This document shows, piece by piece, positions 58,742-64,000 of a stretch of 64,000 nt of DNA (position 1 is its first letter; every line of letters starts with the position of its first letter). The translations under genes and the position numbers were made by a program. The notes beneath the pieces are model-generated. The model was given only the letters and a program-made list of their open reading frames with translations, did no database searches and was not told where the DNA came from. The stretch lies in NCBI RefSeq assembly GCF_054482595.1, contig NZ_CM137008.1. One strand, 5' to 3'.

Positions 58742-59667
58742 GTATTCGCATAATCCCGCAAGATGAGCTGGGTTCGAGCGAGAAACGTACGGCGGATATG
58801 ATTCCGCCGTTATTGTTCCCTCGGCTCAAGAATTTATACAACCGCCGCGCCGAGCGTCTGCGCGAGCTGGCAGAAAATAATCCGCTGGGTGATTACCTGC
58901 GCTTTGCTGCGCTTATCGCCCACGCCCAGGAAGTGGTGCTGTACGACCATCCGCTGGAGATGGATCTGACCGCGCGCATTAAAGAAGCCAGCGCACAGGG
59001 CAAGCCCCCGCTGGATATTCACGTTCTGCCGCGTGATAAGCACTGGCAAAAGCTGCTGATGGCGCTGATTGCTGAGCTGAAACCTGAAATGAGCGGCCCG
59101 GCGCTGGCAGTGATTGAGAATCTGGAGAAGGCATCAACTCAGGAGCTGGAAGATATGGCCAGCGCACTGTTTGCCTCTGATTTCTCATCCGTCAGCAGCG
59201 ATAAAGCGCCGTTTATCTGGGCTGCACTGTCGCTCTACTGGGCGCAGATGGCCAATCTGATCCCCGGCAAAGCCCGCGCTGAATACGGCGAGCAACGTCA
59301 ATATTGCCCGGTTTGTGGTTCTATGCCGGTGTCCAGCATGGTGCAAATTGGCACCACTCAGGGTCTGCGTTACCTGCACTGCAACCTGTGTGAAACCGAA
59401 TGGCACGTAGTGCGCGTAAAATGCAGCAACTGCGAGCAGAGCGGCAAACTGCATTACTGGTCGCTGGATGACGAACAGGCCGCGATTAAAGCCGAAAGCT
59501 GCGATGACTGTGGCACTTACCTGAAGATTCTTTATCAGGAAAAAGAACCGAAAGTTGAAGCCGTGGCAGATGACCTCGCTTCTCTGGTACTGGACGCGCG
59601 AATGGAGCAAGAAGGCTATGCCCGCAGTTCCATCAACCCGTTCCTGTTTCCGGGTGAAGGGGAGTAA
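58738..59667 (+). CDS. fdhE: Formate dehydrogenase formation protein FdhE
   Basis: 309-aa [51 protein letters not shown]... with paired CxxC motifs; recognised as FdhE. Confidence 0.9.
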
Positions 59668-59859
59668 TCTCTGACGTTTTCCGGGTGGCGCTGGTCGCCC
59701 GGATTACAGCTCATAGGGTGTGACGACACCATCTCTCGTATTCCGCGTTACCCATTCAAGATCATGCCGCAATTGTCTGTTTGCCTCGTTCTTCCCTCCA
59801 ACACATCGATAAGGTTATGGGTATGTCACTGATGACAAGCGTATGATTGCCTGATGCGC

Positions 59860-59950
59860 TGCGCTTATCAGCCCTACCAATAAACTTCAATATATTGAAT
59901 TTGCATGACTTTGTAGGCCGGATAAGGCGTTCACGCCGCATCCGGCATGA
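59860..59950. repeat. REP/BIME element downstream of fdhE
   Basis: gcctgatgcgctgcgcttatcagccctac ... tgtaggccggataaggcgttcacgccgcatccggca. Confidence 0.85.
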
Positions 59951-59996
59951 ACAACGCGCACGTTGTCAGCAATCTGATTGACATCATTTTTTCCCA

Positions 59997-60215
59997 TTAC
60001 CATTCCTCGCGCAGCTTACGCTGATATTCGACACCATCTTCCTCACACCCTTGCCAGATGCCAGGAACACTGGTTCTTGCTGTTTGCGATTGATTTATCA
60101 GGTATTGATCTACCGCTTCCCTTAATAGGTCCGCACGAGGAAGATTACGCTGCACCTCGAGATCATCAAGTTGCTTAATCACCTCATTCGATAAATCGAG
60201 TAAAATTCTGCCCAT
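59997..60215 (-). CDS. yiiF: Small ribbon-helix-helix (CopG/MetJ-like) putative regulator
   Basis: [42 protein letters not shown]... (72 aa from ATG at 60215); gene name assigned from position next to fdhE. Confidence 0.65.
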
Positions 60216-60458
60216 ATCTATACCTACCAGAGAGTTCATAAATATCTCGCCAATATCATTTTTGAATCTATGGAGAGAAAAGTACCCTTGTCGAATCTTT
60301 AAAGAAAGCTCATTTACGAATCATTTTTTATTTTTGCGAGGCGTTTTCCAGATATGATGTAACAGTTGCAGTTATTATAAGTTCAAGTAAAACAACCTTG
60401 TATTAATACCAGAATAAGGGCATCTGGTTTTTTATATTCAAGAATAAAAAAATTTTTG

Positions 60459-60677
60459 TCATTCCTTATGATCCTTACACTGATCATAAACACCTACTGT
60501 CTCACCCCTTTGCCTGCCTCTCTTTGCTTTACGCACCGGAAATTGCTGCCGCTCCAGATATTGCTCAACCGCTTCGCGTAAAATTGCAGATCGTGAAACC
60601 TTACGCCAGCCCCGAAGCTTGTTCAGCCGTTTAATTGCCTCTTCTGATAAATGAAGAAAAACCGTATTCATCGCCAT
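60459..60677 (-). CDS. yiiE: Small ribbon-helix-helix (CopG/MetJ-like) putative regulator, paralog of the upstream gene
   Basis: MAMNTVFLHLSEEAIKRLNKLRGWRKVSRSAILREAVEQYLERQQ... (72 aa from ATG at 60677); shares the LxxEAVxQYL RHH signature and a homologous upstream region with yiiF. Confidence 0.65.
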   Translation of the reverse strand: MAMNTVFLHLSEEAIKRLNKLRGWRKVSRSAILREAVEQYLERQQFPVRKAKRGRQRGETVGVYDQCKDHKE

Positions 60678-61262
60678 TACCACCACCTTACATATATTAC
60701 TCATTAATGTATGTGCGAAAATTACGCCGGAAAATCATTTAAAAAAAGCGGATTTTTGCATGTTGTTTTGTTTTTGCGAGGTGTTTTCCAGAAATAATAA
60801 GAGTGTTGCAGTTGTTTCATTTATTACTCAAAAATGGTTTAGTTATCGCCCAGGATGAGTTATGGATGCTATGAATATATTATATTCAGAGATATTTATT
60901 TGCATAATCTGAATGGTGTAGCCGAAAAACGTCAGCATCCTAACAGCACCAGGATTTAAGGTGAAATTAATCATCCATCACAGACCGGTCAGTACTGCCA
61001 CCAACCGGTCTTTACTTGTTCATCGTTATAATTTTGTTGGTAACAGTTCGGGAAACAAGGAATTCCTTCCGGAACCCCCCGGTATCATCCGATAGCATTG
61101 ACGTCAATCATCAGCGCGACGATGAGTTTTTTTAATCGCATCATAGGGTGGCGACGTTCAGCACGATTACGGGTCATAGCAAAACTCCTGGGCAGGCGAC
61201 CACTATGCCGCTTTCACAGGAGTTCTGAATGCTAGTGCTTTCTGTATGGCATAACCATGCCT

Positions 61263-61553
61263 CTAACGGTTAAGTGCTTGCAGCACATGTTGCGGATCAT
61301 TGGCAATCGCTCGCAGCAAAGCCTTTGCAGGCCCGGTCGGTGAACGTCGCCCCTGCTCCCAGTTACGCAACGTGTCTACGCTTACAGAAATAAGATCGGC
61401 AAATTTAGATTGTGACAACCCTGAAGCGCGGCGTATTTCTTTGATTTTCATAGCATCAACTTCAAAAGTCCGCGAAGGCTGTCGCGTTCCTTCAATAATT
61501 TCATTCATCTGGGCCATGCTGTGAGTCAACCGCTCAAAAAGTGCCTTATCCAT
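61263..61553 (-). CDS. XRE-family HTH protein, putative antitoxin (HigA-like)
   Basis: 96-aa ORF MDKALFERLTHSMAQMNEIIEGTRQPSRTFEVDAMKIKEIRRASGLSQSKFADLISVSVDTLRNWEQGRRSPTGPAKALL...; HTH_XRE signature; starts directly after the upstream toxin ORF stop. Confidence 0.8.
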   Translation of the reverse strand: MDKALFERLTHSMAQMNEIIEGTRQPSRTFEVDAMKIKEIRRASGLSQSKFADLISVSVDTLRNWEQGRRSPTGPAKALLRAIANDPQHVLQALNR

Positions 61554-61865
61554 TTACCACCTCGTATTTAACAACCGGAGCATTGCTTTTTCCTGGGGAG
61601 ACAGATCATCTTTAATACCCTTACGATAAATAAGCAGTAATCTGATCTCATAATGTTTAACCTGATGAAAGTAAATAACCCTGACACCAGCACGTTTCCC
61701 CTTTCCTCCTGAAACCCATCGAACCTTTCTTAACCCACCAGTTTCAGGTATTACCTCACCATAGTCAGGATTCAAGGCCAGGAAAAACTGAAAACGACTG
61801 AATTCATCGTCGGTCAGCAGTTTTTGAACATCTTCAGTAAAAATTTCCGTTTCGATGAAGAGCAT
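61554..61865 (-). CDS. RelE/HigB-like type II toxin (mRNA interferase family), toxin-first operon
   Basis: 103-aa ORF MLFIETEIFTEDVQKLLTDDEFSRFQFFLALNPDYGEVIPETGGLRKVRWVSGGKGKRAGVRVIYFHQVKHYEIRLLLIYRKGIKDDLSPQE...; small basic protein of RelE-like pattern upstream of an XRE partner. Confidence 0.7.
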   Translation of the reverse strand: MLFIETEIFTEDVQKLLTDDEFSRFQFFLALNPDYGEVIPETGGLRKVRWVSGGKGKRAGVRVIYFHQVKHYEIRLLLIYRKGIKDDLSPQEKAMLRLLNTRW

Positions 61866-62018
61866 AATTATACGCCATTGGCTTAGAGTAACAATCCTTT
61901 TTGTACGTCATTGACGTACCCTTGAAACCACTAGCTTACTGATAGTGCTCCAGCAAAACCACGTCTCTGCCGGGTTTGTCTTTAGATTTGCGAGGCGCTT
62001 TCCAGATTTTTCACGCCC

Positions 62019-63002
62019 GTGAATTTCCCTGTATCCATCCAGCAAAAACGGGTGTATAAGACTGTGCATTCATACAGCAAAATAAGTTCTACTATGGCAC
62101 TGGAAAAAGGAATTGCAGAGTTAGTCGAAAAGTTTATCGCTGCGGGTCGCCCCTCATCGCGTCAACAAAGTATTGCGCAGCGCAGGGAGGGCTATATCGC
62201 CAGCGCTGTCCTTGCGGGTGAGACAGAAACGCGGGTAGATATTCAGACTATCGAACTTGAAGGGATGACCTTACGAATAGTGTCGCCGCTGAATGCCCCG
62301 ACATTACTCCCGACGATAATTTATTACTACGGTGGCTGTTTTGTTAGCGGCGGGTTCGCAACTCACGACAACCAGCTGCGCCAGTTAGCCTATTACGGGC
62401 AATGTCGGGTTATTGCCGTCCAGTATCGGCTGGCACCGGAACATACTTTCCCCGCCGCCCATGATGATGCGCAACGAGGTGCAGAAATAGTCTGGCAACA
62501 CGCCGAACGACTCGGCGTTGATAAACAACGTATAACTCTTGCCGGTGACAGTGCGGGCGGACATCTGGCGCTGGTAACTGCTTTGCGATTAAAGCGTGCT
62601 GGCGAGTGGCAACCGGCACAACTCATCTTAATTTATCCTATGCTTGATGCGACTGCGCATTTCGAAAGCTACATACGCAATGGTCACGATTACATCATCA
62701 CACGCGACACTTTACTGAGCGGCTTTGAGATGTATCTGCCAGGCATTGAACGCAGGCATCCTGAAGCCAGCCCTCTTTGGCGCGATGATTTCAATGGCTT
62801 GCCACCTGTACATATCATTACCGCTGAATACGACCCACTTTGCGATGAAGGTGAAGCGTTGTATCACCGCATGACAGGGCAAGGAGTGCAATGCACCTGC
62901 CAACGCTACCTTGGCGTTATCCACGGATTTTTTCAGTTAGGTGGTATCAGCGAGGCCGCGCGATCGGCACTACGGGATGTTGCCTGGAGAGCGGGAAGGT
63001 AA
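62019..63002 (+). CDS. Alpha/beta-hydrolase, hormone-sensitive-lipase-family esterase (Aes-like)
   Basis: Oxyanion-hole region YYYGGCFVSGG, nucleophile elbow GDSAGG, C-terminal GVIHGFF; true start may be the internal ATG at 62094 (MALEKGIAEL...). Confidence 0.75.
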   Translation: MNFPVSIQQKRVYKTVHSYSKISSTMALEKGIAELVEKFIAAGRPSSRQQSIAQRREGYIASAVLAGETETRVDIQTIELEGMTLRIVSPLNAPTLLPTIIYYYGGCFVSGGFATHDNQLRQLAYYGQCRVIAVQYRLAPEHTFPAAHDDAQRGAEIVWQHAERLGVDKQRITLAGDSAGGHLALVTALRLKRAGEWQPAQLILIYPMLDATAHFESYIRNGHDYIITRDTLLSGFEMYLPGIERRHPEASPLWRDDFNGLPPVHIITAEYDPLCDEGEALYHRMTGQGVQCTCQRYLGVIHGFFQLGGISEAARSALRDVAWRAGR

Positions 63003-63065
63003 CTTCGGACCTGGGCCCTGAAAAGGTTTTCAGATTGAAAACCTTTTCAGTCAAGTAAAACGCCC

Positions 63066-64000
63066 CTACTCTTCTTCGTTCCCGCCCTCTTCATACGGGC
63101 CAAATGGCTTCGCGGGCAGAACGATATACGTGCCTTCAAACACTGCACCCGGCGTCTCGTCGCCAAAGATTTCAACTTGCATCTGCACCCGTGCTTTTCG
63201 TCCGCGCGCCAGACGGTCGAGATCGCCGCTTAAGGCACCAAGGTCGGCTACCGCATGAGGTTTACCGCTAATCGGCTTGCTGTAGCGGATATGCGCATCC
63301 GCCAGAATAATCGTTCCGCCGAGATGGCGTTCGCGCAGCATCAGCCAGATAAGCCCCCAACCGGTGAGCGTCGCCAGCGAGAATAAACTCCCGGCAAACA
63401 GCGTATGGTGCGGATTCTGATTGCCGGTTTCCGGCATGGTGGTGATAAATTTTTGCCCGGTATATTGTTGAATACGCACGCCCATTTTTTCACTAAGCGG
63501 GATATGTTCGTACCACGCCTGTTGCAGCTGCGCGCACCAGTCGCCGCGATGCAAAATATCATCCAGAGTGGCGACGGGCTTAATCATCAAAAAATGGCGA
63601 ATCGGCGTGGTGGTTGGCGTGGTGATTTCTCCCTGATTAACAAACCCCAGCTTGGCGAAAAACTCCACCGCGTCTTCACGGGCGCTACAGGTCACGCGCT
63701 TAACGCCTTCCTGACGCGCCACCGACTCCAGGGTCATCGCCATCAGCGTTCCTAACCCTTTGTCCTGCACGTCCGGGTGAACGGCCATAAAGCGAATGGA
63801 CGCTTCATTGTCGGCATTAATATACAGTCGGCCTACCGCCACCAGATTACCCTGCTCGTCGACGACCATCTGGTGATGCGCCATCGCATCCCACGCGTCG
63901 CGTTCCGAACCTTTTGGTTGATGCAGGGGCTTACGCAACATTTCCCAGCGAAACTGATAGTAACGCTCTAATTCTTCTTCTGTTTGTGGAACCCGAAGGT
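63066..64000 (-). CDS. yiiD: GNAT acetyltransferase / thioesterase fusion protein YiiD, C-terminal part (start beyond window end)
   Basis: Frame open to the window end; ...[64 protein letters not shown]... recognised as YiiD. Confidence 0.85.

What the first reader, a model, noticed from the sequence alone, without database searches (positions are those of the whole stretch)
61866..63002. Esterase-like alpha/beta hydrolase co-inserted next to the toxin-antitoxin pair
The ORF carries all three hallmark motifs of hormone-sensitive-lipase-family esterases (YGGCF oxyanion region, GDSAGG nucleophile elbow, C-terminal HGF). It lies divergently next to the HigB/XRE pair in what appears to be the same accessory insertion, and its start codon is ambiguous (62019 versus internal ATG at 62094). 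It may be cargo of a small island or a displaced paralog of aes.
Basis: partly seen in the sequence, partly recalled or inferred. Interest (0 to 1): 0.4.

Follow-up and report, generated by a model that had tools for sequence, protein, structure and literature searches.

The report
SOS-controlled esterase that K-12 has lost
The gene is a real hormone-sensitive-lipase-type esterase, but it was not inserted: it has long sat between fdhE and fabY across the Enterobacteriaceae, carries a conserved LexA (DNA-damage) operator, and has been deleted from about half of E. coli, including K-12.

Summary
The ORF and its motifs are real. It is a 302-aa family IV (HSL-type) carboxylesterase that starts at ATG 62094, not GTG 62019. 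The predicted triad is Ser153/Asp247/His277.

The "co-inserted island cargo" and "displaced aes paralog" readings are not supported. Orthologs of 68-83% identity occupy the same fdhE–esterase–fabY slot in about 80 enterobacterial species. The toxin-antitoxin modules around them come and go.

Esterase-less E. coli still carry remnants. O157-type genomes keep the last 26 nt of the antitoxin gene, next to an AT-rich two-gene cassette. K-12 is a further 2-kb deletion of that cassette. A soil strain keeps about 100 bp of the esterase 5' end.

A canonical LexA box (62060-62079) follows an invariant -10 element and sits 14 nt before the ATG. It is conserved in 72 of 83 orthologous loci. The Salmonella ortholog (STM4032/STM14_4846, "nlhH") is published as induced 15-fold by nalidixic acid, with an expressing subpopulation that needs cleavable LexA and RecA.

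E. coli alleles uniquely carry Tyr in place of the invariant His of the HGG motif, yet evolve under purifying selection. The substrate and the role in the SOS response are unknown.

The parts
62094..63002 (+). Esterase coding sequence, 302 aa plus stop. RefSeq WP_001162704.1 'alpha/beta hydrolase'; ortholog of Salmonella STM4032 / STM14_4846 'nlhH'.
   Evidence: ORF. PGAP start in the 100%-identical strain XH990 maps to 62094. Pfam PF07859 at 5e-69. PDB homologs at about 1e-50. All 17 orthologs aligned start at this Met.
62328..62342 (+). Oxyanion-loop motif Y79-G80-G81-C82-F83, a variant of HGGG-F. Y79 is codon TAC, where orthologs have His.
   Evidence: Aligns with HGGG of 4ypv, 2yh2 and 6i8d. 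His in 84 of 84 non-E. coli orthologs; Tyr in 5 of 5 E. coli alleles and in the cluster representative. Cys82 in 83 of 84.
62544..62561 (+). Nucleophile elbow G151-D-S153-A-G-G156. Ser153 is codon 62550-62552.
   Evidence: Aligned to GDSAGG of solved HSL esterases; invariant in 84 of 84 orthologs.
62832..62834 (+). Predicted catalytic Asp247, in DPLCDEG.
   Evidence: Aligned to DPL(K/R)DEG of 4ypv and 2yh2; invariant.
62922..62924 (+). Predicted catalytic His277, in IHGFF.
   Evidence: Aligned to IHGF of solved homologs; invariant.
62060..62079 (.). LexA (SOS) box GACTGTGCATTCATACAGCA, ending 14 nt before the ATG. Core CTGT-N8-ACAG at 62062-62077.
   Evidence: Only match to the core pattern in the 64-kb window. 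CTG-N10-CAG occurs at the same place in 72 of 83 orthologous loci, as 58 distinct sequences, with consensus aACTGTATATcCATACAGat. The E. coli LexA consensus is TACTG(TA)5CAGTA (PMC9578287). In the Salmonella ortholog the box lies 13 bp from the ATG, has heterology index 7.63, and the gene is induced 15-fold (PMC8072944).
62055..62060 (+). Inferred -10 hexamer TATAAG (TATAAA in other E. coli alleles). TATAA is invariant across the 12 genera aligned.
   Evidence: Alignment A3; box-anchored conservation profile.
62032..62037 (+). Inferred -35 hexamer TATCCA (TTTTCA in most genera), 17 nt upstream of the -10.
   Evidence: Inference from the spacing and conservation profile. Weak match; not picked up by the consensus scan.
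61987..62006 (.). Conserved 20-nt upstream block TTTGCGAGGCGCTTTCCAGA of unknown function. Two further copies lie at 60333-60352 and 60773-60792, upstream of yiiF and yiiE.
   Evidence: Three copies in the window against 0.02 expected. Found in 59 orthologous loci (up to 7 mismatches allowed), 55 of them 105-108 nt from the esterase ATG.
62019..62093 (+). The in-frame 'N-terminal extension' from GTG 62019. It is not coding: it holds the -35, the -10 and the LexA box.
   Evidence: No ortholog has the extension. The conserved promoter and operator lie inside it.
63018..63050 (.). Perfect 15-bp hairpin between the convergent stops of the esterase (63002) and fabY (63066); likely a bidirectional terminator.
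   Evidence: Inverted repeat I1. RNA fold -22.5 kcal/mol, z = -4.0. No U-tract, so a terminator function is inferred only.
61554..61865 (-). HigB-2-family toxin, 103 aa; ortholog of Salmonella SehC / STM4032.2N / STM14_4847. A neighbour, not part of the esterase unit.
   Evidence: PDB HigB-2 at E 1e-19. Present next to the esterase in only 9 of the 69 species loci with fdhE upstream. Salmonella naming.
61263..61553 (-). HTH (XRE / NadS-type) antitoxin, 96 aa; ortholog of Salmonella SehD / STM4033.
   Evidence: Pfam HTH_3 at 7.5e-10. NCBIfam NadS 60.7 bits against a cut-off of 60.
61903..61919 (.). Palindrome GTACGTCATTGACGTAC, the likely operator of the antitoxin. It is about 140 nt from the LexA box.
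   Evidence: Conserved only in loci that carry the HigB-2 pair (alignment A3). Function inferred.
61289..63065 (.). Segment replaced in esterase-less E. coli. O157-type genomes have an AT-rich two-gene cassette here. K-12 lacks 61056-63065 and keeps only 475 bp of that cassette.
   Evidence: Pairwise blastn of the window against O157 (L089) and K-12 (L002) loci; junction alignment; K-12 sequence; population counts.

Best explanation
Window 62094-63002 encodes a cytoplasmic, monocistronic carboxylesterase of the hormone-sensitive-lipase family (bacterial family IV, Abhydrolase_3). It should hydrolyse small carboxylic esters through a Ser153-Asp247-His277 triad. The oxyanion hole is formed by the backbone of the (Y)GGC loop and Ala154.

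It is the E. coli ortholog of Salmonella STM4032 / STM14_4846 ('nlhH'). It is a long-standing resident of the fdhE–fabY interval in Enterobacteriaceae, not cargo of an insertion.

Its promoter (-35 TATCCA, -10 TATAAG) is directly followed by a canonical LexA box that covers the inferred transcription start. The gene is therefore most likely repressed by LexA and switched on by RecA-stimulated LexA cleavage after DNA damage, as published for the Salmonella ortholog.

About half of E. coli, including K-12 and O157:H7, lost the esterase together with the adjacent HigB-2/HTH toxin-antitoxin pair. The main event was replacement by an AT-rich cassette, which later decayed in K-12. At least one independent deletion also occurred.

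Shown here: family, fold-level homology, catalytic residues by alignment, start codon, synteny, remnants, and conservation of the operator. Inferred: LexA control in E. coli. Unknown: the substrate, the physiological role, and the effect of the E. coli-specific His79Tyr change.
For: Family and mechanism:
- Pfam PF07859 at 5e-69.
- 125 solved homologs, the best at about 1e-50, with the nucleophile elbow, Asp and His motifs aligned.
- These residues are invariant in 84 of 84 orthologs.
- No N-terminal signal-like sequence is seen (direct reading).

Start codon:
- PGAP uses 62094.
- All orthologs start at that Met.
- The conserved promoter and operator lie inside the putative extension.

Residency of the locus:
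- Syntenic orthologs occur in Citrobacter, Enterobacter and Salmonella and in 80 species loci.
- fdhE is upstream in 61 of 66 evaluable loci, fabY downstream in 58 of 73, and both in 48 of 63.
- The upstream occupant varies: none in 27 loci, PIN+RHH in 28, the HigB-2 pair in 9.

Loss in E. coli:
- The O157-type haplotype keeps homology up to window 61288, 26 nt into the antitoxin 3' end.
- K-12 equals the O157-type minus 2046 bp.
- Strain SC434 keeps about 100 bp of the esterase 5' region.
- Esterase GC is 52.7%, against 33-39% for the replacing cassette.

LexA control:
- The box is present in 72 of 83 loci, as 58 distinct sequences, always 12-17 nt from the ATG and usually right after TATAA.
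- It matches the published consensus.
- The S. Senftenberg locus shows that exact geometry.

Still functional in E. coli:
- Five alleles spanning 97.5-100% nt identity are all intact, and dN/dS between the deep alleles is 0.12-0.19.
Against: - There are no expression, LexA-binding or enzyme data for the E. coli gene itself.
- The window's box has 14 of 20 matches to the consensus. Other E. coli alleles have 15 of 20 and Salmonella 16 of 20. The window has G instead of the usual A right after CTGT.
- E. coli alleles have a weaker Shine-Dalgarno (AAATAAG or AAATGAG against AAAAGGA) and a weaker -35 than other genera.
- They replace the otherwise invariant His of HGG by Tyr, which could impair catalysis.
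- The esterase tree is not fully congruent with its flanks. Two Salmonella enterica alleles are only 77% identical while FdhE and FabY are 99-100% identical. No other Escherichia species appeared among the best 80 loci of the species-representative scan. Continuous vertical descent into E. coli is therefore not proven.
- The AlphaFold model was too poor (pLDDT 60) to check the active-site geometry.
Confidence: 0.75

Rival explanations
1. One reading: the esterase and the HigB/XRE pair were acquired together as cargo of a small accessory island inserted between yiiE and yiiD (fabY) in some E. coli.
For: Both are absent from K-12 and O157:H7, and each is present in about 2636 of 5426 complete genomes, so they are perfectly linked within E. 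coli. TA GC content is 44.6%, below the genome average. The TA block is less diverse among E. coli strains (0.2-0.8% nt) than the esterase (1.2-2.4%) or fabY (2.5-3.9%).
Against: The position is orthologous in about 60 other species. In 27 of them the esterase has no TA upstream, and in 28 it has a different TA. Esterase-less haplotypes retain TA or esterase remnants. Esterase GC content is host-like. There is no integrase, transposase or flanking repeat. The apparent 'plasmid' copies are mis-filed chromosomal fragments that carry fdoGHI-fdhE and fabY-dtd.
Confidence: 0.04
2. The gene is a recently displaced or duplicated paralog of the E. coli acetyl esterase Aes.
For: Both belong to the HSL family. 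NCBIfam's Aes model gives a weak hit, and solved Aes (4krx) matches at 5e-29.
Against: Identity to K-12 Aes is only 31% over 279 residues. The score of 138.6 bits is far below the Aes equivalog cut-off of 389. The gene has its own orthologous group at a fixed locus across the family.
Confidence: 0.02
3. In E. coli the gene is a decaying relic. The His79Tyr change in the oxyanion-loop motif, a weakened ribosome-binding site and a weakened -35 have largely inactivated it, which is why it is so readily lost.
For: His is invariant in 84 of 84 non-E. coli orthologs, and Tyr is found in all E. coli alleles sampled. E. coli has a weaker SD and -35. More than half of E. coli genomes lack the gene, through at least two independent events. 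In mycobacterial LipN, conservative Gly-to-Ala substitutions of the two oxyanion-hole glycines of this motif (Gly144, Gly145) cut kcat/KM 15- to 140-fold. In LipW an equivalent change mattered less than 4-fold (PMC10099132).
Against: All five sampled alleles are intact over 302 codons. dN/dS is 0.12-0.19 between alleles that all carry Tyr79, so purifying selection continued after the substitution. The LexA box and the -10 are retained in every allele. The His is not a triad residue.
Confidence: 0.15
4. The slot is ancient, but the particular E. coli allele (esterase with or without the TA pair) arrived by homologous replacement from another enterobacterial genus, through recombination in the conserved fdhE and fabY flanks. 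On this reading it is 'acquired' without being an island. This is compatible with the main explanation.
For: The esterase phylogeny disagrees with its flanks. S. salamae and S. Senftenberg esterases are 77% identical while FdhE and FabY are 99-100% identical. The E. coli enzyme is closest to Citrobacter sp. R56 and Pseudocitrobacter (82-83%) rather than to Salmonella (76-77%). No other Escherichia species appeared in the species-representative scan. Within E. coli, esterase dS (0.04-0.07) is about half that of adjacent fabY (0.12-0.18).
Against: No donor closer than 83% identity was found. Deep E. coli alleles (dS up to 0.07) imply long residence. GC content is host-like. Rate variation alone could produce part of the incongruence.
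Confidence: 0.3

Closest known systems
Salmonella enterica STM4032 / STM14_4846 ('nlhH', putative acetyl esterase), a member of the Salmonella SOS regulon (Mérida-Floriano et al. 2021, PMC8072944)
   Same: Same chromosomal slot: fdhE – HigB-2/HTH pair – esterase – fabY. Same divergent 103-aa toxin gene. A LexA box lies 13-14 nt before the ATG. Identity is 76-77% aa, and both are HSL-family enzymes.
   Different: The Salmonella subsp. enterica protein is 309 aa with HGGC. It has a second TA pair (sehAB) between it and fabY. SOS induction and LexA/RecA dependence were measured there. The E. coli protein is 302 aa with YGGC, has no downstream TA, and has a weaker SD and -35. It is untested.
Solved bacterial HSL-family (family IV) carboxylesterases: Est8 (4ypv), PestE (2yh2), EST2 (1evq), AFEST (1jji)
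   Same: Abhydrolase_3 fold by sequence (E about 1e-50 to 1e-43). GDSAG nucleophile elbow, DPL.D acid and HGF base motifs, and an N-terminal cap region.
   Different: Their oxyanion motif is HGGG(F/W/Y). Here it is YGGCF in E. coli and HGGCF in the enterobacterial orthogroup. None of them is known to me to be under LexA control (from memory, not tested).
E. coli Aes (YbaC, acetyl esterase; 4krx)
   Same: Same family and the same triad arrangement. Both are cytoplasmic.
   Different: Only 31% identical. Aes lies at the hemH-gsk locus, is core in E. coli, has the HGGGF motif, and fails to claim this protein under NCBIfam's equivalog cut-off.
Canonical E. coli SOS genes with an operator over the promoter (sulA, umuDC, dinB)
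   Same: A 20-bp CTGT-N8-ACAG palindrome sits immediately downstream of the -10 and close to the start codon. The Salmonella table lists sulA, umuD and dinP boxes at 15-21 bp from the ATG, and nlhH at 13 bp.
   Different: The product is a hydrolase with no known link to DNA metabolism. The gene is missing from K-12, so it is absent from the classical E. coli SOS lists.

Membership tests
Hormone-sensitive-lipase family / bacterial lipolytic family IV (Pfam Abhydrolase_3) | alpha/beta-hydrolase fold-3 domain detected above the curated threshold | tested here: met
   PF07859 at 232.6 bits against a cut-off of 25, covering profile positions 1-209 of 210.
Hormone-sensitive-lipase family / bacterial lipolytic family IV (Pfam Abhydrolase_3) | GxSxG nucleophile elbow (GDSAG subtype) with the catalytic Ser | tested here: met
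   GDSAGG at 151-156 aligns with GDSAGG of 4ypv, 2yh2 and 6i8d. Invariant in 84 orthologs.
Hormone-sensitive-lipase family / bacterial lipolytic family IV (Pfam Abhydrolase_3) | HGGG oxyanion-hole motif | tested here: inconclusive
   The aligned segment is YGGC. The two central Gly are kept, the His is replaced by Tyr (E. coli only), and the third Gly is replaced by Cys (83 of 84 non-E. coli orthologs and every E. coli allele sampled). The consequence for activity is unknown.
Hormone-sensitive-lipase family / bacterial lipolytic family IV (Pfam Abhydrolase_3) | Catalytic Asp (DPL.D) and His (HGF) in the C-terminal third | tested here: met
   D247 and H277 align with the corresponding motifs of solved homologs. 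Invariant.
Hormone-sensitive-lipase family / bacterial lipolytic family IV (Pfam Abhydrolase_3) | Measured carboxylesterase activity | not testable with these tools
   No biochemical data were found for this orthogroup.
Aes (acetyl esterase) equivalog, NCBIfam NF007547 | Score above the curated equivalog cut-off | tested here: not met
   138.6 bits against a cut-off of 389. 31% identity to K-12 Aes.
LipP1 and chloramphenicol-hydrolase equivalogs (NCBIfam NF058653, NF033149) | Score above the curated cut-off | tested here: not met
   239.2 bits against 350, and 163.5 bits against 500.
LexA (SOS) regulon | Operator matching TACTG(TA)5CAGTA at or next to the promoter | tested here: met
   GACTGTGCATTCATACAGCA at 62060-62079 has the perfect CTGT-N8-ACAG core and 14 of 20 matches to the consensus. 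It directly follows the -10.
LexA (SOS) regulon | Operator conserved in orthologous promoters | tested here: met
   Present in 72 of 83 loci, as 58 distinct sequences, at a fixed position. CTG and CAG are invariant while the flanking intergenic DNA is poorly conserved.
LexA (SOS) regulon | DNA-damage induction that depends on cleavable LexA and on RecA | not testable with these tools
Genomic island / mobile insertion | Absent from the orthologous site in related species; mobility genes, flanking repeats or atypical composition | tested here: not met
   The site is occupied by the ortholog in most Enterobacteriaceae. There is no integrase or transposase and no bracketing direct repeat. Esterase GC is 52.7% against 51.2% for the window.
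Type II toxin-antitoxin module (as a third component) | Obligate co-occurrence and co-transcription with the toxin-antitoxin genes | tested here: not met
   The gene is transcribed divergently. 27 species loci have the esterase with no TA upstream, and 43 have none downstream.

The most novel reading that the evidence does not exclude
The esterase is a genuine effector of the enterobacterial DNA-damage response, not merely a passenger of a LexA box. It might, for example, hydrolyse an ester-type genotoxin or a damage-generated metabolite. E. coli lineages that lost it (K-12, O157:H7) would then differ from the other half of the species in SOS physiology. The E. coli-specific His79Tyr change would mark a shift in activity or substrate.
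Probability: 0.2. Interest if true: 0.6.

Novelty: new member of a known kind. Interest (0 to 1): 0.38.

Why it matters
The E. coli SOS regulon was defined almost entirely in K-12, which lacks this gene. If the LexA box works as it does in Salmonella, about half of E. coli strains have an SOS-induced enzyme of unknown function that the model strain cannot reveal. These include many clinical, avian and livestock isolates.

The conservation of the operator across more than 15 genera argues that the link between DNA damage and this esterase is under selection. That gives a concrete, testable entry point to an unexplained branch of the SOS response.

The locus is also a clean example of how a K-12-centred 'absent, therefore inserted' inference can be wrong. 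Here the ancestral gene was deleted, and the truly foreign DNA is what replaced it.

Tried and rejected
- AlphaFold2 on an 18-sequence alignment of close orthologs gave a poor model (mean pLDDT 59.9). It was not used, and no fold search was run. The fold assignment rests on sequence matches to solved structures.
- An Rfam scan of 59600-64000 found only two sub-threshold REP-type sRNA matches (RF02564 naRNA4 and RF02751 ES036) at 59870-59952, and nothing near the esterase.
- The simple sigma-70 and terminator scan did not detect the esterase promoter or the 63018-63050 hairpin. Its one promoter-like hit (61894-61867, minus strand) abuts the toxin ATG and is probably not functional as placed.
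- A search for flanking direct repeats around the variable segment found none.
- Plasmid hits at 98% identity or more are chromosomes filed as plasmids. A 76% hit on a Salmonella 'plasmid' is a chromosomal fragment with fdoGHI-fdhE and fabY-dtd. There is thus no evidence of plasmid carriage.
- Literature searches for an E. coli study of this gene ('nlhH' with E. coli), for SOS-regulated esterases in Enterobacteriaceae, and for yiiE/yiiF found nothing beyond the Salmonella papers.
- I could not compute a formal heterology index for the E. coli box, because the frequency matrix was not available. Mismatch counts to the consensus are given instead.
- Pfam found nothing for the two O157-cassette proteins, for two small hypothetical ORFs of other E. 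coli haplotypes, or for a 30-aa ORF in the window.
Full report
**1. What is in the sequence**

The window ends in the E. coli region fdoH-fdoI-fdhE-yiiF-yiiE … fabY(yiiD). An ORF on the + strand runs from GTG 62019, or ATG 62094, to the stop at 63002. It matches Pfam Abhydrolase_3 at E 5e-69 over the full domain. It also matches 125 solved protein chains. The best are the family IV (HSL-type) esterases Est8 (4ypv) and PestE (2yh2), at E about 1e-50.

In those alignments GDSAGG (151-156), DPL.DEG (from 247) and IHGF (from 276) line up residue for residue. YGGC (79-82) lines up with their HGGG. The predicted triad is Ser153 (62550-62552), Asp247 (62832-62834) and His277 (62922-62924).

The neighbours on the minus strand are a HigB-2-family toxin (61554-61865) and an HTH antitoxin (61263-61553). 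The toxin matches Vibrio HigB-2 structures at E 1e-19. The antitoxin matches Pfam HTH_3 and NCBIfam NadS.

**2. Start codon**

Three lines of evidence point to ATG 62094.
- RefSeq annotation of the 100%-identical strain XH990 starts the gene at the position equal to window 62094 (302 aa, WP_001162704.1).
- Seventeen orthologs from other genera all begin at this Met with MALEKGI…, and none has the 25-residue extension.
- The stretch 62019-62093 contains the conserved promoter and operator described in section 5.

**3. Not an insertion: the gene is the stable resident of the locus**

Within E. coli the gene really is variable. At least 80% of it is present in 2636 of 5426 complete genomes, at 97.5-100% nt identity. 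It is absent from K-12 and O157:H7. The TA pair is present in the same number of genomes.

Outside E. coli the picture is different. Proteins of 74-83% identity are annotated in Citrobacter, Enterobacter, Salmonella, Leclercia, Lelliottia, Superficieibacter and other genera. In C. braakii, E. hormaechei and S. enterica subsp. salamae they sit between fdhE and fabY, convergent with fabY, exactly as in the window.

A scan of one genome per species returned 80 loci from more than 15 genera.
- fdhE lies upstream in 61 of 66 evaluable loci.
- fabY lies downstream in 58 of 73.
- Both are present in 48 of 63.

What varies is the company the esterase keeps.
- Between fdhE and the esterase there is nothing in 27 loci, a PIN+RHH (VapBC-like) pair in 28, the HigB-2 pair in 9, and something else in 5.
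- Between the esterase and fabY there is nothing in 43 loci and a second HigB/HigA pair (Salmonella sehAB) in 6-9.

The esterase is the constant and the toxin-antitoxin modules are the movable parts.

**4. How E. coli lost it**

O157:H7-type genomes align with the window up to 61288. That point is 26 nt into the 3' end of the antitoxin gene, and the remnant is already decaying, with substitutions and one indel. Beyond it they carry a 39%-GC cassette with two roughly 300-aa ORFs that have no family match. The cassette runs up to the fabY stop codon.

K-12 is identical to that haplotype except for an internal 2046-bp deletion. The deletion leaves 475 bp of the cassette (33% GC) and a pseudogene fragment. 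The full cassette is present in 1062 genomes. Most other esterase-less genomes have only the 475-bp remnant.

A soil isolate (SC434) shows an independent event. About 100 bp of the esterase 5' region remain next to a HigB/HigA pair.

Esterase GC content (52.7%) matches the window (51.2%). No mobility gene or bracketing repeat is present. 'Plasmid' copies are mis-filed chromosome fragments.

The E. coli polymorphism is therefore co-deletion or replacement of TA plus esterase, not co-insertion. The DNA that is really foreign is the cassette found in K-12 and O157.

**5.

I aligned the roughly 230 nt upstream of the esterase from 12 genera. The DNA is poorly conserved except for two islands.

The first island is an invariant TATAA (window 62055-62059). 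It is followed at once by CTGT-N8-ACAG. In the window this reads GACTGTGCATTCATACAGCA (62060-62079) and ends 14 nt before the ATG.
- It is the only match to that core pattern in the 64-kb window. Taken alone this is not significant, because 0.74 matches are expected by chance.
- A CTG-N10-CAG box lies 12-17 nt before the ATG in 72 of 83 orthologous loci. There are 58 distinct sequences, and CTG and CAG are invariant among them. The consensus is aACTGTATATcCATACAGat.
- The published E. coli LexA consensus is TACTG(TA)5CAGTA (PMC9578287).
- The loci without a box are mostly the most distant genera (Buttiauxella, Hafnia, Erwinia, Rahnella).

A plausible sigma-70 promoter (-35 TTTTCA, 17 nt, -10 TATAAA) sits just upstream, so the box covers the inferred transcription start.

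This regulation is already documented in Salmonella. Mérida-Floriano et al. 2021 (PMC8072944) list STM14_4846 'nlhH', a 930-bp gene described as 'putative acetyl esterase'.
- It is induced 15.1-fold by nalidixic acid.
- It has one SOS box, 13 bp from the ATG, with heterology index 7.63.
- The divergent 312-bp gene STM14_4847 'higB-2' is induced 8-fold and is credited with the same box at 184 bp.

The LT2 names are STM4032 for the esterase, flanked by sehCD (STM4032.2N-STM4033) and sehAB. These names come from a retracted paper and are used here only for gene names and gene order (PMC3868539). A S. Senftenberg locus shows this exact anatomy, with the box AACTGTACATACATACAGTC 13 nt from the ATG.

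I found no paper on the E. coli gene. LexA control in E. coli is inferred from orthology and from the retained operator.

**6. E. coli peculiarities**

All five E. coli alleles sampled keep the box. Four have AACTGTACATTCATACAGCA and -10 TATAAA. The window allele has two changes, GACTGTG… and TATAAG.

All E. coli alleles have a weaker Shine-Dalgarno and a weaker -35 than the other genera. All replace the His of the HGG motif by Tyr (TAC at 62328-62330). That His is present in 84 of 84 non-E. coli orthologs. Cys at the third Gly position is shared by 83 of 84 non-E. coli orthologs and by the E. coli alleles.

In mycobacterial LipN, conservative Gly-to-Ala substitutions of the two oxyanion-hole glycines of this motif reduce kcat/KM 15- to 140-fold. 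In LipW an equivalent change reduces it less than 4-fold (PMC10099132). The effect of Tyr79 therefore cannot be predicted.

Against inactivation: all alleles are intact, and dN/dS between deep alleles that share Tyr79 is 0.12-0.19.

**7. Caveats on history**

The esterase evolves faster than its flanks. Median identity to the E. coli protein is 75% aa, against 91% for FdhE and 93% for FabY.

Its tree is not congruent with the flanks.
- Two S. enterica alleles are only 77% identical, while their FdhE and FabY are 99-100% identical.
- The E. coli protein is closest to Citrobacter sp. R56 and Pseudocitrobacter (82-83%).
- No other Escherichia species appeared among the best 80 loci of the species scan.
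- Within E. coli, diversity rises from the TA pair (0.2-0.8% nt) through the esterase (1.2-2.4%) to fabY (2.5-3.9%).

The interval therefore behaves as a recombination hot spot in which whole alleles are exchanged through the conserved flanks. The slot is ancient. Unbroken vertical descent of the E. coli allele is not proven.

**8. Comparison with known families, and verdict**

The protein is a member of the HSL / family IV esterases, with an atypical oxyanion motif. It is not an Aes equivalog: it scores 138.6 bits against a cut-off of 389, and identity to Aes is 31%. It falls below the cut-off of every named NCBIfam esterase model. It is the ortholog of Salmonella nlhH/STM4032, a published SOS gene of unknown role.

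I file it as a new, E. coli member of a known kind. The island and paralog ideas do not. The substrate and the reason an esterase is wired to DNA damage remain open.

One conserved element is unexplained. A 20-nt block, TTTGCGAGGCGCTTTCCAGA, lies 107 nt before the ATG.
- It has three copies in the window against 0.02 expected.
- It was found in 59 orthologous loci, 55 of them 105-108 nt from the ATG.
- Read forward, it resembles a CRP-type half-palindrome centred near -70.
- Read on the reverse strand, it resembles a sigma-54 -24/-12 element pointing away from the esterase.
- Neither reading was tested.

Noticed in passing
window 61987-62006, 60773-60792, 60333-60352: A 20-nt block, TTTGCGAGG(C/T)G(C/T)TTTCCAGA, occurs three times in the window against 0.02 expected: upstream of the esterase, of yiiE and of yiiF. 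In 59 orthologous loci it was found upstream of the esterase ATG, in 55 of them 105-108 nt away. The reverse strand reads TGGAAAG-N4-TCGCA (sigma-54-like). The forward strand reads TGCGA-N6-TTCCA (CRP-like). Its function is unknown.
   Followed up: partly
window 59668-60239; L095 1816-2432; L003 5179-5795: yiiF is 71-75% identical to the RHH partner of a PIN (VapC) toxin that lies next to fdhE in 28 other species loci and in E. coli SC434. In this window the PIN gene is gone and the gap holds REP-like matches (naRNA4 and ES036, both below threshold). yiiF and yiiE therefore look like orphan antitoxin genes. The sequence upstream of each looks like a decayed copy of the esterase promoter region.
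   Followed up: partly
window 61903-61919: The perfect palindrome GTACGTCATTGACGTAC lies about 40 nt upstream of the toxin start. It is conserved only in loci that carry the HigB-2/HTH pair. It is probably the antitoxin operator, separate from the LexA box about 140 nt away.
   Followed up: no
window 61085-61177 (-): A 30-codon ORF (MTRNRAERRHPMMRLKKLIVALMIDVNAIG) is preceded by an AGGAG Shine-Dalgarno, just downstream of the antitoxin gene. It has no family match. The surrounding 60895-61123 region differs by a roughly 395-bp indel from other E. coli haplotypes, which carry two small hypothetical ORFs there.
   Followed up: partly
L089 1892-4182 (O157:H7); L002 2647-3121 (K-12): The DNA that replaces TA plus esterase in O157-type genomes is an AT-rich (39% GC) cassette. 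It has two roughly 300-aa ORFs with no Pfam match, one of which is annotated 'transposase' in some strains. At least 80% of the cassette is present in 1062 genomes. K-12-type genomes keep only its last 475 bp.
   Followed up: partly
L007 (S. enterica subsp. salamae) vs L097 (S. Senftenberg): Two Salmonella enterica esterase alleles are only 77% identical in protein sequence, while the flanking FdhE and FabY are 99-100% identical. This points to exchange of whole alleles between genera at this locus.
   Followed up: partly
window 61263-64000 vs L091-L094: Nucleotide diversity among E. coli strains rises across the block: TA pair 0.2-0.8%, esterase 1.2-2.4%, fabY 2.5-3.9%. The TA pair may have spread or swept more recently than its neighbours.
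   Followed up: no
H61 (NZ_CM166347.1) and H72 (NZ_CP104592.1): In some E. coli the toxin gene is interrupted by IS1 or is half deleted, so the TA pair is itself decaying in places.
   Followed up: no
window 63018-63050: A perfect 15-bp hairpin (-22.5 kcal/mol, z = -4.0) lies between the convergent esterase and fabY stops and has no U-tract. A similar GTTTTCAAGTTGAAAAC hairpin appears in the Salmonella primer sequence downstream of nlhH.
   Followed up: partly
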